Virus record (IMG/VR): IMGVR_UViG_3300043754_000129 | Location: 224,001-288,000 of that record | Strand: one strand, 5' to 3' | DNA from: a virus | Taxonomy: Duplodnaviria; Caudoviricetes | Length of the DNA: 64,000 nt | Shown: positions 13,482 to 15,728 of the stretch, in pieces | How the letters are laid out: every line of letters starts with the position of its first letter | Position numbering within the stretch: the stretch's first letter is position 1 | The notes under the pieces: generated by a model | The model's input: the letters and a program-made list of their open reading frames with translations, nothing else | Databases searched by the model: none | What the model was told of the DNA's origin: nothing | Translations under genes and position numbers: made by a program

Positions 13482-14069
13482 TCACCACTTCAAATAAGCG
13501 GGCAACGATTCCGTAGCTACCTTGTCATGTTGCTGGCCAAAGAACACAAGGTCCTGCGCACGGTCCGTCTTCTTAAAGCGCGCATCCTCACAGAGCTTGT
13601 TCTTCTGCGGCTCCAGCGAGTGATCGTTATACGGGTAGATGGTCAGGCCCGGATCACTCTTATCCACCCAAGCATTGATCTTGCCAAGCGGGACGATCTC
13701 CACGGGATCGAGTACGCAGTACTCATGCGTGACATGCGCGTCCCACACGAGGCGTTCCTTCGTGAGTTCCATTGGCGTCTTGATGCGGACCTTCTGGCCC
13801 GGCTTCATCTGGTAGACAAAGAAGTCCACGCCGTTCTTCTGTCCCTCGTCCGAGAAGAGTTTCTCATAGACGTTGGGGATGATGGCTTGCAGGCAATGAA
13901 AGATGCTCGGCGCAAACGACACACGCGGTGCCGTGAACTCTTTCAGAATGCCTTGGTCTTTGTCATCACTGCCAGCGGGCTTGCGTGGTGCGAGCATCTT
14001 CGGTAGCCGGCCGTCAAACGTGATGTGAAACAATCGCGGGATGTTATTCACAGTCTTCTCCTTGTACAC
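13482..14069 (-). CDS. putative ADP-ribosyltransferase-fold protein, possibly virion-associated
   Basis: LFHIT (beta1 His), RVSFAPS (beta2), DAHVTHEYCVL (acidic strand); C-terminal ATES...LKW. Confidence 0.4.
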   Translation of the reverse strand: MYKEKTVNNIPRLFHITFDGRLPKMLAPRKPAGSDDKDQGILKEFTAPRVSFAPSIFHCLQAIIPNVYEKLFSDEGQKNGVDFFVYQMKPGQKVRIKTPMELTKERLVWDAHVTHEYCVLDPVEIVPLGKINAWVDKSDPGLTIYPYNDHSLEPQKNKLCEDARFKKTDRAQDLVFFGQQHDKVATESLPAYLKW

Positions 14070-14076
14070 AAAATTG

Positions 14077-14106
14077 ACGGCATAAAAGCCAGGCCGAAGC
14101 CTGGCT
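14077..14106 (-). terminator. terminator closing the tRNA cluster
   Basis: AGCCAGGC-TTCG-GCCTGGCT then TTTATGCCGT. Confidence 0.8.
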
Positions 14107-14111
14107 CAATA

Positions 14112-14201
14112 TGGCAGAGAGAAAGGGATTCGAACCCTTGGTGCAGTTGCCCACACATCGCCTTAGCAGGGCGACTCTTTAAACCGCTCGGACATCTCTC
14201 T
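14112..14201 (-). tRNA. tRNA-Ser(GCT)
   Basis: AGAGAGA/TCTCTCT acceptor, TCGCC-CT GCT AA-GGCGA, long variable arm, G73, CCA encoded. Confidence 0.93.
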
Positions 14202-14209
14202 AGAAAAGG

Positions 14210-14293
14210 GGAGCGGGCTGCAAGTGGTTTCGAGCCACCACCAAACTATCGATGCATGCATTCACGATAGCCCAGTTCCTACCGGAGCCCCGC
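14210..14293 (-). ncRNA. tRNA-like cloverleaf with 13-nt palindromic loop
   Basis: bulged GCGGGGCT/AGCCCGC stem, CCGGT-AGGA-ACTGG arm, CTATCG/CGATAG stem with loop TGAATGCATGCAT, GGTGG-CTCGAAA-CCACT T-like arm; no CCA. Confidence 0.5.
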
Positions 14294-14312
14294 ACTGAAG
14301 AAAAAAGGAAAG

Positions 14313-14392
14313 TGGGGCGCCGTAGGGGATTTGAACCCCTGTCTCCGATTCGTGCACGAACCAGCATCCTAGGCCTCTAGAAGAACAGCACC
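14313..14392 (-). tRNA. atypical tRNA with His identity (G-1:C73) and no canonical anticodon loop
   Basis: G-GTGCTGT/ACGGCGC-C-CCA, Glu-like D arm and T arm AGGGG-TTCAAAT-CCCCT; anticodon arm CTGGT-TCGTGCACGA-ATCGG. Confidence 0.75.
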
Positions 14393-14415
14393 ACTGTGAA
14401 ACACCAAACACCTTA

Positions 14416-14491
14416 GGGGTGACCACCGGGAATCGAACCCGGGACCCTCGGGGCCACATCCCGATGCTCTACCAATCTGAGCTATGGCCAC
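14416..14491 (-). tRNA. tRNA-His(GTG)
   Basis: TCGGG-AT GTG GC-CCCGA; C73; position -1 is T; 3' end CC then T. Confidence 0.9.
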
Positions 14492-14515
14492 ACCTAAGCA
14501 TGTCTAGTTGAAACT

Positions 14516-14593
14516 TGGCCCCTTGGAGTGGATTTGAACCACTGACACACCACCATTCGAGGTGGCCGCTCTACCAGACTGAGCTACCGCGGG
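14516..14593 (-). tRNA. atypical tRNA with 8-nt (or 6-nt) anticodon loop
   Basis: canonical D arm and T arm, CCA encoded; GCCAC-CTCGAATG-GTGGT; two acceptor mismatches (CCCGCGG/CCAAGGG). Confidence 0.7.
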
Positions 14594-14608
14594 ATTGAAA
14601 CAATTCAA

Positions 14609-14694
14609 TGGAGAAGAGGATGGGATTCGAACCCACGCGGGCTTGCGCCTCCAGGTTTGCAATCTGGCTCCTTCAGCCTCTCGGACACCTCTTC
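14609..14694 (-). tRNA. tRNA-Cys(GCA) with long variable arm
   Basis: GAAGAGG/CCTCTTC, U73, CCA; CCAGA-TT GCA AA-CCTGG; variable hairpin GGC-GCAA-GCC. Confidence 0.85.
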
Positions 14695-14712
14695 CACTGA
14701 CACAACAAATAC

Positions 14713-14789
14713 TGGTCGGAATTGTAGGATTCGAACCTACGACCCCCTGATCCCAAATCAGGTGCGCTACCGGGCTGCGCTAAACTCCG
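14713..14789 (-). tRNA. tRNA-Pro(TGG)
   Basis: CGGAGTT/AATTCCG, CCTGA-TT TGG GA-TCAGG, CCA encoded. Confidence 0.95.
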
Positions 14790-14806
14790 GAACTACAAAG
14801 ACGGCT

Positions 14807-14882
14807 TGGTGGCGATGGTCAGAATCGAACTGACGACCAACGGATTATGATCCCGCTGCTCTACCGACTGAGCTACATCGCC
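14807..14882 (-). tRNA. tRNA-Met or Ile2 (CAT)
   Basis: GGCGATG/CATCGCC, GCGGG-AT CAT AA-TCCGT, CCA; G1:C72 so not initiator. Confidence 0.9.
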
Positions 14883-14894
14883 GTACTACGAATC

Positions 14895-14982
14895 TGGTGG
14901 GGAAGATTGGATTCGAACCAATGTAGGACCTAAGCCCAACAGATTTACAGTCTGCCCCCTTTAGCCTCTCGGGCACCTCCCC
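14895..14982 (-). tRNA. tRNA-Tyr(GTA)
   Basis: GGGGAGG/CTTCCCC, GCAGA-CT GTA AA-TCTGT, long variable arm, CCA. Confidence 0.95.
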
Positions 14983-14989
14983 AGATGTG

Positions 14990-15540
14990 AAAGAACACAG
15001 CCCAATTTGCCTCGTGACATTTCTGTCCTGTAACCGTTTAGCGTGTGCTAACGCAGTTTGCCGCCTGAGAATTACATCCCAGAGCAGCCCGCCGCATCAC
15101 GTCATGCCGGGTGATTAGGCCGGCCAGTCCATTAAGAGGTTGACTCATTTCACCCGCAAGCCCGTGGATTTGCCAACGGAGCCCAATTAGGGTGGTGCTG
15201 TCGAGTCAAGACCTACCACGTCCTCCTTTCGGTTAGACTAGGTAGTGCAGAGTGCCCATCCAAGTAGAGTGTACGGTCATTGCTTTCTGAGGTGAGAATC
15301 GAACTCACATTTGGCCTGAGGCCGCGGCCAATGACAGCCAGCATGCGTTAGTCCCGTTGAGAGGACGCTGATTCGCATACGGGAGACTCAAGATCCCCGG
15401 GGTATACCGATTCCCCCACTCATCTCTCTACTATCGACACAACTTGCGTTTAGATCACTTTCCGTCCGTCGCGTTACCACAACGGTGGGCATGTCGGAGG
15501 TTTGGGTCTGAAGGTCCCTCGTACATGCATTGTGTATTCT
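14990..15540 (-). ncRNA. large structured non-coding RNA with embedded tRNA-like domain (boundaries approximate)
   Basis: no ORF; nested helices, GNRA hairpins, H-type pseudoknot 15096-15124, D/anticodon/T arms at 15285-15425. Confidence 0.6.
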
Positions 15541-15590
15541 CTCACATACTCTTACGCATTGCAGTAAAAAAATACTTTACTATCAATGAC

Positions 15591-15728
15591 TTAGCATCCC
15601 GGGATCATCGGAATGCCTTCGACGTACATCGGACGCGAGTAGTGAAATACCCACTTCGGTCCGACGGCGTCAAGATGAAGGTGGAGGAAGTACCTCCACC
15701 ACCATTGATAGACAGCGTAGCCGGCCAT
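15591..15728 (-). CDS. small aromatic-rich protein (45 aa)
   Basis: TAATG overlap with upstream stop; MAGYAVYQWWWRYFLHLHLDAVGPKW... Confidence 0.5.
   Translation of the reverse strand: MAGYAVYQWWWRYFLHLHLDAVGPKWVFHYSRPMYVEGIPMIPGC

What the first reader, a model, noticed from the sequence alone, without database searches (positions are those of the whole stretch)
14313..14392. tRNA with His identity pair G-1:C73, Glu-like body and a GTGCAC palindrome replacing the anticodon loop
The sequence reads G-GTGCTGT TC TTCT AGAGGCCT AGGAT G CTGGT TCGTGCACGA ATCGG AGAC AGGGG TTCAAAT CCCCT ACGGCGC C CCA. It has a genomic G-1 opposite C73, the major HisRS determinant, and an encoded CCA. The anticodon arm can fold only as an 8-bp stem with a TGCA tetraloop or a 5-bp stem with a 10-nt loop; there is no U33 and no purine 37. 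Inference: it could be charged with His yet not decode, acting as a histidyl donor or sink, a HisRS decoy, or a kissing-loop RNA.
Basis: partly seen in the sequence, partly recalled or inferred. Interest (0 to 1): 0.72.

Follow-up and report, generated by a model that had tools for sequence, protein, structure and literature searches.

The report
Phage tRNA mimic with sealed anticodon
A giant soil phage carries, inside its tRNA operon, a complete tRNA-shaped gene with the histidine-type acceptor end, but its codon-reading loop is closed into a hairpin, so it can probably be processed and perhaps loaded with histidine yet cannot read codons; whether it is kept for a purpose or is a freshly broken tRNA gene is still open.

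Summary
Window 14313-14392 (minus strand) is a full cloverleaf in a nine-gene RNA operon of a 324-kb soil jumbo phage. It has an encoded G-1 opposite C73, an encoded CCA, a tRNA-Glu-type D arm and 4-nt variable loop, and a canonical T arm. Three extra bases turn the anticodon loop into the 10-nt palindrome UCGUGCACGA, which folds as an 8-bp stem with a UGCA tetraloop, 7.5 kcal/mol better than the open loop.

It is not an assembly error. An independent soil metagenome contig that differs at about 2.5% of positions nearby is identical across the element, and a third variant keeps its length.

No single 3-nt deletion restores a canonical loop. A canonical 7-nt loop swapped in by computer makes ARAGORN call the body a tRNA-His or tRNA-Glu.

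The relatives I could fetch (66-73% protein identity next door) lack the gene, and no copy turned up in IMG/VR, JGI metagenomes or GTDB genomes. Selection on it is therefore unproven.

Two neighbouring tRNA-shaped genes also have self-complementary loops and do show conservation or compensatory changes.

Best reading (about 50%): a non-decoding, probably histidine-accepting tRNA mimic. Main rival (about 33%): a young pseudogene.

This scan has already noted sealed-anticodon tRNA mimics in other large phages.

The parts
14313..14392 (-). E1, the whole tRNA-shaped gene (80 nt with G-1 and CCA)
   Evidence: Sequence read. Cloverleaf fold -32.7 kcal/mol, z -2.45. ARAGORN calls tRNA-?(tgca), score 93.5, only at -ps90. 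Identical in the independent contig of run X2.
14392..14392 (-). Encoded G-1, pairs with C73 (14316)
   Evidence: Sequence. RNAfold includes this pair in an 8-bp acceptor stem.
14313..14316 (-). C73 followed by encoded CCA
   Evidence: Sequence. 13 of the genome's 14 ARAGORN-called tRNAs also encode CCA.
14345..14364 (-). Anticodon arm sealed into an 8-bp helix (C-G, U.G, G-C, G.U, U-A, U-A, C-G, G-C) capped by UGCA; the 10-nt palindrome UCGUGCACGA lies at 14350-14359
   Evidence: Sealed form is 7.5 kcal/mol better than the open form; pair probabilities 0.95-1.0. No single 3-nt deletion gives U33 plus R37.
14366..14384 (-). U8-C9 and a tRNA-Glu-type D arm (U10.U25, U11-A24, C12-G23, U13.G22; loop with GG)
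   Evidence: 15-nt core identical to the phage's own tRNA-Glu and to tRNA-Glu genes of other phages.
14324..14344 (-). 4-nt variable loop AGAC (A46, no position 47, C48) and T arm AGGGG-UUCAAAU-CCCCU
   Evidence: Sequence and fold.
14416..14491 (-). Neighbouring tRNA-His(GUG) with a normal 7-nt loop, but U at -1 (no G-1), C73, and a CCU end
   Evidence: ARAGORN and Rfam 60.1 bits. Flanks read.
14516..14593 (-). Odd tRNA with an 8-nt loop CUCGAAUG (or a 6-bp stem with UCGAAU), two acceptor mismatches and CCA; member of the same operon
   Evidence: ARAGORN tRNA-???(cgaa); Rfam 43 bits. Two compensatory T-stem double changes in X2/X3/X4. Orthologous 3' end with a different T stem in L011.
14212..14296 (-). 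E2, a cloverleaf-like element with a 6-bp stem, a 13-nt loop holding AUGCAUGCAU, and a T-like arm; lies directly downstream of E1
   Evidence: Fold. 85.5% identical to L009:5811-5893, while the flanks do not align.
14084..14105 (-). Intrinsic terminator (GCCAGGC-UUCG-GCCUGGC-UUUU) that closes the RNA operon after tRNA-Ser
   Evidence: Sequence. The same hairpin is seen in relatives L009, L010 and L014.

Best explanation
E1 is a genuine tRNA-shaped gene, transcribed with the phage's real tRNAs from one operon: a long non-coding leader, then Tyr, Met, Pro, Cys, the odd tRNA, His, E1, E2, Ser and a terminator.

Its body has everything needed to fold into the tRNA L-shape. I infer that host RNase P cuts it one base early because G-1 pairs with C73, and that it ends in its encoded CCA. 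That yields an 80-nt RNA with the bacterial histidine acceptor signature.

Its anticodon arm is closed into an 8-bp hairpin, so it cannot pair with a codon.

I propose that it is kept as a non-decoding tRNA mimic, most likely chargeable with histidine by the host HisRS. It would be one of several mimics with self-complementary 'anticodon' loops in this phage.

Shown: the structure, that the sequence is real, the operon context, and that it is not a simple +3 error.
Inferred: processing, histidylation, and that it is under selection.
What it does after charging (HisRS or EF-Tu sink, histidine donor, decoy for a tRNA-directed host factor) is unknown.
For: 1. All tRNA features are intact except the loop. 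Swapping in any 7-nt loop with U33 by computer makes ARAGORN call it tRNA-His or tRNA-Glu at the default threshold.
2. Getting from a canonical loop to this one needs at least two events, and the result is a perfect 10-nt palindrome (0.1% of random 10-mers).
3. The sealed form is strongly favoured.
4. It has G-1, C73 and CCA. C73 occurs in only one other of the genome's 14 called tRNAs, the tRNA-His.
5. HisRS charges G-1:C73 microhelices, and G-1 irregular soil tRNAs are charged but do not decode (PMC9976931; PMC5389517).
6. It lies inside a terminator-bounded tRNA operon.
7. It is identical in an independent strain that has 24 substitutions and 3 indels per 1066 nt nearby. A third variant has 3 substitutions and no indel.
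8. Two neighbouring loop-palindrome elements look selected. The odd tRNA has two compensatory T-stem double changes, plus an orthologue whose T stem is different but still paired. E2 is 85% conserved in a relative whose flanks do not align.
9. The genome holds at least four more anticodon-less tRNA-shaped genes ending in CCA.
Against: - No orthologue was found outside strain-level variants. The syntenic slot in L009, L010 and L014 lacks E1, and pattern scans of IMG/VR, JGI metagenomes and GTDB genomes found none.
- Zero differences in 80 nt at about 2.3% divergence is expected by chance roughly 16% of the time, so purifying selection is not shown.
- The D stem has a U10.U25 mismatch and the acceptor stem has two G.U pairs, which could be early decay.
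- No phage HisRS, class-II core, Thg1, GluRS, peptidyl-tRNA hydrolase, CCA-adding enzyme or RtcB was found that could point to a dedicated pathway.
- A single templated 'quasi-palindrome' mutation could create the perfect palindrome without any selection.
Confidence: 0.5

Rival explanations
1. Young pseudogene. A Glu-bodied tRNA-His (or tRNA-Glu-derived) gene was disabled recently by a templated hairpin, or 'quasi-palindrome', mutation in the anticodon loop. It is still transcribed and processed only because it sits in the operon, and it has no function.
For: - The gene is restricted to one species-level lineage. It is absent from the same slot in relatives with 66-73% identity in the neighbouring protein.
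- No copy was found in public collections.
- A canonical tRNA-His(GUG) lies 23 nt upstream, so E1 would be redundant.
- The D stem has a U10.U25 mismatch.
- A real tRNA-His with the same Glu-type body exists in a Saccharibacteria MAG, which shows a plausible functional ancestor type.
Against: - At least two events are concentrated in the 10-nt loop, while every helix and every tertiary-contact nucleotide elsewhere is intact.
- Three elements in one operon share self-complementary loops, and two of them show conservation or covariation.
- The 'redundant' upstream tRNA-His itself lacks G-1 and A76.
Confidence: 0.33
2. Dimerising RNA. The palindromic GUGCAC drives loop-loop kissing or an extended duplex between two E1 molecules, in the manner of the HIV-1 dimerisation site (that comparison is from my own knowledge).
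For: - The 6-nt palindrome GUGCAC sits at the centre of the arm.
- E2 carries AUGCAU and the odd tRNA carries UCGA at the same place.
- Cofolding predicts a 20-bp intermolecular duplex: -82.3 kcal/mol against 2 x -32.7 for two monomers.
Against: - A kissing complex requires opening two sealed arms (about +15 kcal/mol) for a -7.9 kcal/mol duplex.
- Any palindromic hairpin gives a favourable cofold, so that result is not specific.
- There are no data on RNA concentration or on any chaperone.
Confidence: 0.05
3. DNA-level element. The palindrome is a protein-binding, restriction or homing-endonuclease site, or a footprint of a mobile insertion in the anticodon loop, and the RNA shape is incidental.
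For: - Mobile cassettes and nucleases do target phage tRNA anticodon loops. This rests on earlier scan notes on other genomes, which I did not check.
- The 10-mer occurs 3 times in the genome against about 0.3 expected.
Against: - GTGCAC and ATGCAT are neither avoided nor enriched in the genome (observed/expected 0.74 and 0.80).
- The other two copies of the 10-mer lie in unrelated sequence context.
- The outer pairs of the arm are G.U, which is complementary only at the RNA level.
Confidence: 0.05
4. It still decodes. This would be a tRNA-His (or other) with an expanded 8- to 10-nt loop that opens on the ribosome and reads CAY or a longer codon.
For: - GUG is present in the loop.
- ARAGORN at a low threshold draws an 8-nt loop.
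- Natural 8-nt-loop tRNAs exist, for example the yeast mitochondrial tRNA-Thr (title and abstract of PMC3113583, listed).
Against: - There is no U33.
- All three inner pairs have probability >=0.95, and the open form costs 7.5 kcal/mol.
- A 10-nt loop is beyond known functional sizes (my own knowledge).
Confidence: 0.04

Closest known systems
Irregular G-1 'tRNA1' species in tRNA polycistrons from forest and peat soil metatranscriptomes (Mukai et al., Nucleic Acids Res 2017, PMC5389517)
   Same: - tRNA-shaped RNAs from soil.
- Encoded in polycistrons beside other odd tRNAs.
- Carry G-1.
- Shown to be charged by E. coli HisRS better than tRNA-His, yet not used to insert His.
   Different: - Those keep a 7-nt anticodon loop (GGU, with GUG at 35-37), and some have an 8/4 acceptor/T geometry.
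- The authors suggest they may derive from Acidobacteria and may be associated with toxin-antitoxin loci.
- E1 is 7/5 plus G-1, phage-encoded, and has a sealed arm. No sequence relationship was tested.
Bacterial tRNA-His, including the Glu-type-bodied tRNA-His(GUG) of a Candidatus Saccharibacteria MAG (L091; the same sequence in L090)
   Same: - Encoded G-1:C73 and CCA.
- The same 15-nt D-arm core and a 4-nt variable loop.
- GUG at the same distance (9 nt) from the D arm.
   Different: - The real tRNA-His has the 7-nt loop UUGUGAU.
- E1 has UCGUGCACGA, with no U33, sealed.
Bacterial and phage tRNA-Glu(UUC)
   Same: - D arm, U13.G22 with A46, missing position 47.
- T stem AGGGG/CCCCU.
- E1's best match among the phage's own tRNAs (55/75).
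   Different: - No UUC anticodon.
- C73 instead of G73, U2.G71 instead of U2-A71, and an extra G-1.
- The phage has no GluRS.
Histidine-accepting tRNA-like structures at the 3' ends of plant virus RNAs (tobamovirus type; my own knowledge; Rudinger et al. 1994 is cited as reference 252 in PMC9976931)
   Same: - A viral RNA that mimics the tRNA acceptor end.
- Can be histidylated through positions -1/73 without acting as a decoding tRNA.
   Different: - Those are part of a genomic RNA, built with a pseudoknotted acceptor, in eukaryotic RNA viruses.
- E1 is a free-standing cloverleaf gene in a DNA phage.
mascRNA / MEN-beta tRNA-like small RNAs (Rfam RF01684)
   Same: A tRNA-shaped RNA with a non-decoding anticodon arm, released by tRNA-processing enzymes.
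   Different: - Eukaryotic.
- E1 scores only 18.8 bits against a gathering score of 42.5, so it is not a member.
Sealed-anticodon tRNA mimics noted earlier in this scan in other large phages (e1-5345864, e1-5374148, e1-5401994, e1-4045518)
   Same: - Full tRNA body with the anticodon loop closed into a hairpin, in huge soil phages.
- Some are Glu-derived.
   Different: - Different caps (UUCG, GAAA, GCUUGC), and some come with a phage GluRS.
- E1 has His acceptor identity and no phage synthetase.
- No shared sequence words with E1. I did not verify those notes.

Membership tests
Canonical tRNA (Rfam RF00005) | 7-bp acceptor stem, discriminator base, 3' CCA | tested here: met
   7 bp (two of them G.U), C73 and an encoded CCA.
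Canonical tRNA (Rfam RF00005) | D arm and T arm with the conserved elbow nucleotides (U8, A14, G18G19, U54-U55-C56, A58, 15:48 pair) | tested here: met
   All are present in the sequence (G15:C48 included). The D stem has one U.U mismatch.
Canonical tRNA (Rfam RF00005) | 5-bp anticodon stem with a 7-nt loop, U33 and purine 37 | tested here: not met
   The 10-nt segment is sealed into 3 more pairs plus UGCA. No single contiguous 3-nt deletion gives U33 plus R37.
Canonical tRNA (Rfam RF00005) | Reaches the family's detection thresholds | tested here: not met
   No RF00005 hit at the gathering score. Best member of the clan is 23.2 bits. ARAGORN at default finds nothing.
Bacterial tRNA-His | Genome-encoded G-1 opposite C73 | tested here: met
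   G at 14392 and C at 14316. Identity rule taken from PMC9976931.
Bacterial tRNA-His | GUG at positions 34-36 of a 7-nt loop | tested here: not met
   GUG is present, but inside the sealed palindrome.
Bacterial tRNA-His | Aminoacylation by HisRS | not testable with these tools
   Needs an in vitro charging assay. The only precedent is PMC5389517.
Bacterial tRNA-Glu | Augmented D helix (U11-A24, U13.G22..A46, no position 47) | tested here: met
   Alignment to the phage's own tRNA-Glu. The identity set itself is from my own knowledge of E. coli GluRS.
Bacterial tRNA-Glu | UUC anticodon with A37, and U2-A71 | tested here: not met
   No UUC anticodon; U2.G71; C73.
tRNA-Sec (RF01852) | 13-bp acceptor/T branch with a discriminator base, 6-bp D stem, long variable arm, UCA anticodon | tested here: not met
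   23.2 bits against a gathering score of 47. The variable loop is 4 nt and there is no UCA. The eighth acceptor pair is G-1:C73, which leaves no discriminator base.
Irregular G-1 tRNAs of soil polycistrons (Mukai 2017) | G-1-bearing tRNA-shaped RNA in a polycistron, charged by HisRS, not decoding | tested here: inconclusive
   G-1, polycistron context and non-decoding architecture are met. Charging is untested, and sequence kinship was not examined (their sequences are not held here).

The most novel reading that the evidence does not exclude
E1 is a selected, histidine-chargeable but non-decoding tRNA mimic. Together with the neighbouring G-1-less tRNA-His(GUG) and at least six other anticodon-less tRNA-shaped RNAs in this genome, it would form a phage toolkit that manipulates host tRNA-handling machinery: HisRS, EF-Tu, tRNA-directed defence or sensing. 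No such class of phage RNA turned up in my four literature searches.
Probability: 0.3. Interest if true: 0.75.

Novelty: new variant of a known kind. Interest (0 to 1): 0.55.

Why it matters
Phage tRNA genes are usually explained as codon-usage helpers, or as replacements for host tRNAs cut by defence nucleases. A phage RNA that keeps every tRNA feature except the ability to read a codon, and that carries the one acceptor signature known to be enough for charging without an anticodon, points to a different use of tRNA shape by viruses.

If it is charged, it would be a bacterial-virus counterpart of the histidine-accepting tRNA-like ends of plant viruses. It would also give a genomic home to the 'charged but not translated' G-1 tRNAs seen in soil metatranscriptomes.

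If it is only a fresh pseudogene, it is still a clean example of how one loop mutation hides a gene from tRNA finders.

Tried and rejected
**Searches for copies elsewhere**
- Exact anticodon-arm 16-mer in IMG/VR: one chance hit in non-tRNA sequence.
- D-arm plus T-arm patterns in IMG/VR: only ordinary tRNA-Glu or tRNA-Asp genes, none with the longer arm.
- The 3' half of E1 in IMG/VR: nothing.
- JGI metagenomes: palindrome plus T arm gave nothing. Glu-type body plus C73-CCA gave one tRNA-Glu(CUC) and one true tRNA-His.
- GTDB genomes: only the Saccharibacteria tRNA-His.
- BLAST of E1 against the whole records of Ralstonia phage FLC4-3B and Burkholderia phage FLC9: T-arm matches only.
- Search with the spurious 65-aa ORF that overlaps E1, to fish for relatives: nothing.

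**Expression**
- No RNA holder was listed for this stretch. This is no evidence either way.

**Other ideas rejected**
- Sequencing or assembly error: rejected.
- Restriction-site explanation: rejected, because GTGCAC and ATGCAT occur at ordinary frequencies.
- Chimeric recombination junction: rejected, because the two halves form a complete acceptor stem.
- Phage-encoded partner enzymes (HisRS, class-II core, Thg1, GluRS, peptidyl-tRNA hydrolase, CCA-adding enzyme, RtcB): none found.

**Could not be done**
- The host is unknown. There is only about 28% protein identity to Ralstonia and Burkholderia jumbo phages.

Full report
**Where it is**

The window is bases 224001-288000 of a 323,678-bp IMG/VR virus record. 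Its proteins are only about 28% identical to those of Ralstonia phage phiRSL1 and RsoM2USA and of Burkholderia BcepSauron-type jumbo phages. It is therefore an uncultured jumbo phage, and near-identical DNA is found in soil metagenomes.

The finding lies on the minus strand in a row of RNA genes:
- tRNA-Tyr, 14895-14982
- tRNA-Met, 14807-14882
- tRNA-Pro, 14713-14789
- tRNA-Cys, 14609-14694
- an odd tRNA with an 8-nt loop, 14516-14593
- tRNA-His(GUG), 14416-14491
- the element in question (E1), 14313-14392
- a second unannotated cloverleaf-like element (E2), about 14212-14296
- tRNA-Ser(GCU), 14112-14201

The row ends in an intrinsic terminator at 14084-14105. A terminator-like hairpin of the preceding gene lies at 15680-15700. 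About 600 nt of conserved non-coding sequence lies between that hairpin and tRNA-Tyr. E1 is thus inside one RNA operon.

RNAfold gives a cloverleaf at -32.7 kcal/mol (z = -2.45). It has an 8-bp acceptor stem that includes G-1:C73, and an 8-bp anticodon stem capped by UGCA. The sealed arm is 7.5 kcal/mol better than a 5-bp stem with an open 10-nt loop, and every one of the eight pairs has probability 0.95 or more.

ARAGORN at default settings does not report the gene. At -ps90 it reports 'tRNA-?(tgca)', score 93.5. In Rfam the best hit is tRNA-Sec at 23.2 bits (gathering score 47). The general tRNA model does not reach its threshold.

The 'Glu-like body' is real. Of the phage's 14 called tRNAs, its own tRNA-Glu(UUC) aligns best (55 of 75 positions). 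The two share an identical 15-nt D-arm core, the 4-nt variable loop type and a similar T arm.

**It is not an error, and it is not simply 'tRNA-His plus three bases'**

A 28.8-kb contig from a different soil study (run X2) covers 13900-14965 with 24 substitutions and 3 indels. None of them falls in E1. A 151-nt contig from a third study (X3) covers 14312-14425 with 3 substitutions and no indel. The three extra bases are therefore real.

None of the six products of a contiguous 3-nt deletion has U at position 33. The closest product, UCGUGGA, has GUG and G37 but C33. ARAGORN at default still rejects all eight deletion variants.

When the 10-nt segment is replaced by computer with any 7-nt loop that has U33, the rest is called at the default threshold as tRNA-His or tRNA-Glu. 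The body is therefore fully tRNA-competent, and the loop differs from a working loop by at least two events. Those events produced a perfect 10-nt palindrome, which 0.1% of random 10-mers of this composition are.

**Identity signals**

G-1 opposite C73, followed by CCA, is the bacterial histidine acceptor signature. HisRS charges 13-bp minihelices and 8-bp microhelices that carry G-1:C73, and the anticodon is a secondary determinant (PMC9976931, read).

Among this genome's 14 called tRNAs, only the tRNA-His has C73.

A pattern search for Glu-type bodies with C73-CCA found a true tRNA-His(GUG) with the same D arm, G-1:C73 and a 4-nt variable loop. It sits in a Candidatus Saccharibacteria MAG and in a metagenome contig. 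A Glu-type body is therefore compatible with being a working tRNA-His, and GUG sits at the same distance from the D arm in E1.

The tRNA-His(GUG) just upstream of E1 has U at -1, so it has no encoded G-1. It is also the only called tRNA in the genome without an encoded CCA; it ends CCU. The tRNA-His of the distantly related Burkholderia phage FLC9 has the normal G-1:C73-CCA. The two hallmarks of histidine identity are thus split between two adjacent genes. I cannot explain this.

**Conservation**

The protein encoded just downstream (13482-14069) has relatives at 51-73% identity, and I fetched their contigs.
- L009 and L014 share the non-coding leader and tRNA-Tyr at 75-92% DNA identity.
- L009 also has E2 at 85.5% identity, and the terminator.
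- Met, Pro, Cys, the odd tRNA, His and E1 are absent from that slot in L009, L010 and L014.
- L011 begins with the 3' end of an orthologue of the odd tRNA.

No E1-like sequence was found in IMG/VR, JGI metagenomes or GTDB genomes with six different patterns. E1 is known only from one species-level lineage.

Zero changes in 80 nt at about 2.3% divergence has a chance probability of about 0.16, so selection on E1 itself is not shown.

**Context that argues against plain decay**

- The odd tRNA shows two compensatory double changes in its T stem in X2/X3/X4: 14543 with 14527, and 14542 with 14528. In L011 its T stem is different but still paired. Its loop contains UCGA.
- E2 is conserved where its flanks are not. 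It carries AUGCAUGCAU in its loop, and the core AAUGCAUGC is kept in L009.
- The three changes of X2 in E2 all fall in its T-loop and give UUCAAAG, as in L009.
- Elsewhere in the genome (93.3-96.3 kb), the gaps of the other tRNA cluster hold at least four tRNA-shaped genes of about 130 nt. Each has a branched insert in place of the anticodon loop, and each ends in CCA.

This phage therefore carries a set of non-decoding tRNA look-alikes, and E1 fits that set.

**Mechanism**

Steps shown:
- the fold;
- the sealed arm;
- the acceptor signature;
- the operon context.

Steps inferred from established knowledge:
- RNase P leaves G-1 when it pairs with C73.
- The encoded CCA gives a chargeable end.
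- HisRS accepts it. The closest experimental precedent is Mukai et al. 2017: G-1 'tRNA1' RNAs from soil polycistrons were charged by E. coli HisRS better than tRNA-His but did not insert His in vivo (PMC5389517).

What a charged, non-decoding His-RNA would do is unknown. The phage encodes no HisRS, class-II synthetase core, Thg1, GluRS, peptidyl-tRNA hydrolase, CCA-adding enzyme or RtcB. Any partner would therefore be a host protein or a protein of an unrecognised family.

The kissing-loop idea is energetically poor: -7.9 kcal/mol for GUGCAC pairing against about 15 kcal/mol to open two arms. A DNA-level restriction-site role is unsupported, because GTGCAC and ATGCAT are at ordinary frequencies while CTGCAG is completely avoided.

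**Verdict**

- About 50%: a maintained, non-decoding tRNA mimic that probably accepts histidine.
- About 33%: a young pseudogene made by a templated palindrome-forming mutation.
- About 14% is spread over the three minor alternatives listed as rivals: dimerising RNA, DNA-level site, residual decoding. The rest is unassigned.

It is a new variant of a known kind, the irregular or non-decoding tRNA-like RNAs. This scan has already noted sealed-anticodon tRNA mimics in other large phages. I did not verify those notes.

Noticed in passing
window 14416-14491 (-): The canonical-looking tRNA-His(GUG) has U at -1 (no encoded G-1) with C73. It is the only one of the genome's 14 called tRNAs without an encoded CCA (it ends CCU). 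Histidine identity is split between it and E1.
   Followed up: partly
window 14516-14593 (-); L011:1-30: tRNA with an 8-nt loop CUCGAAUG (or a 6-bp stem with UCGAAU), two central acceptor mismatches and CCA. Two compensatory T-stem double changes in soil variants, and an orthologue with a different but still paired T stem, indicate that it is under selection.
   Followed up: partly
window 14212-14296 (-); L009:5811-5893: Unannotated cloverleaf-like element (E2) with a 6-bp stem, a 13-nt loop holding AUGCAUGCAU, and a T-like arm. It is 85.5% conserved in a relative whose flanks do not align. The strain-level changes all fall in the T-loop.
   Followed up: partly
window 14983-15593 (-): About 600 nt of non-coding sequence ahead of tRNA-Tyr is 75-85% identical in relatives L009 and L014. 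It is probably a large structured RNA that heads the operon.
   Followed up: no
same genome, G000:C1:93300-96300 (L092), e.g. 94000-94129 and 94501-94629 (-): At least four tRNA-shaped genes of about 130 nt lie in the gaps of the other tRNA cluster. Each has a normal acceptor, D and T arms and CCA, but a branched insert (including a second T-arm-like hairpin) in place of the anticodon loop. There are weak Rfam tRNA and YrlA hits.
   Followed up: partly
whole genome G000: CTGCAG is completely absent (0 against about 120 expected) and GTTAAC is strongly depleted (3 against 20). This suggests pressure from host restriction systems with those specificities.
   Followed up: no
L090:935-1000 (-), L091:359-408 (+): A Candidatus Saccharibacteria MAG has a true tRNA-His(GUG) built on a tRNA-Glu-type body (same D arm, 4-nt variable loop). 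It was the only such case among about 185,000 species genomes with this strict pattern.
   Followed up: no
window 14393-14894 compared with L009:5643-5810: The block Met-Pro-Cys-odd-His-E1 is present in this phage but absent between tRNA-Tyr and E2 in relatives. The tRNA content of this operon turns over quickly.
   Followed up: partly
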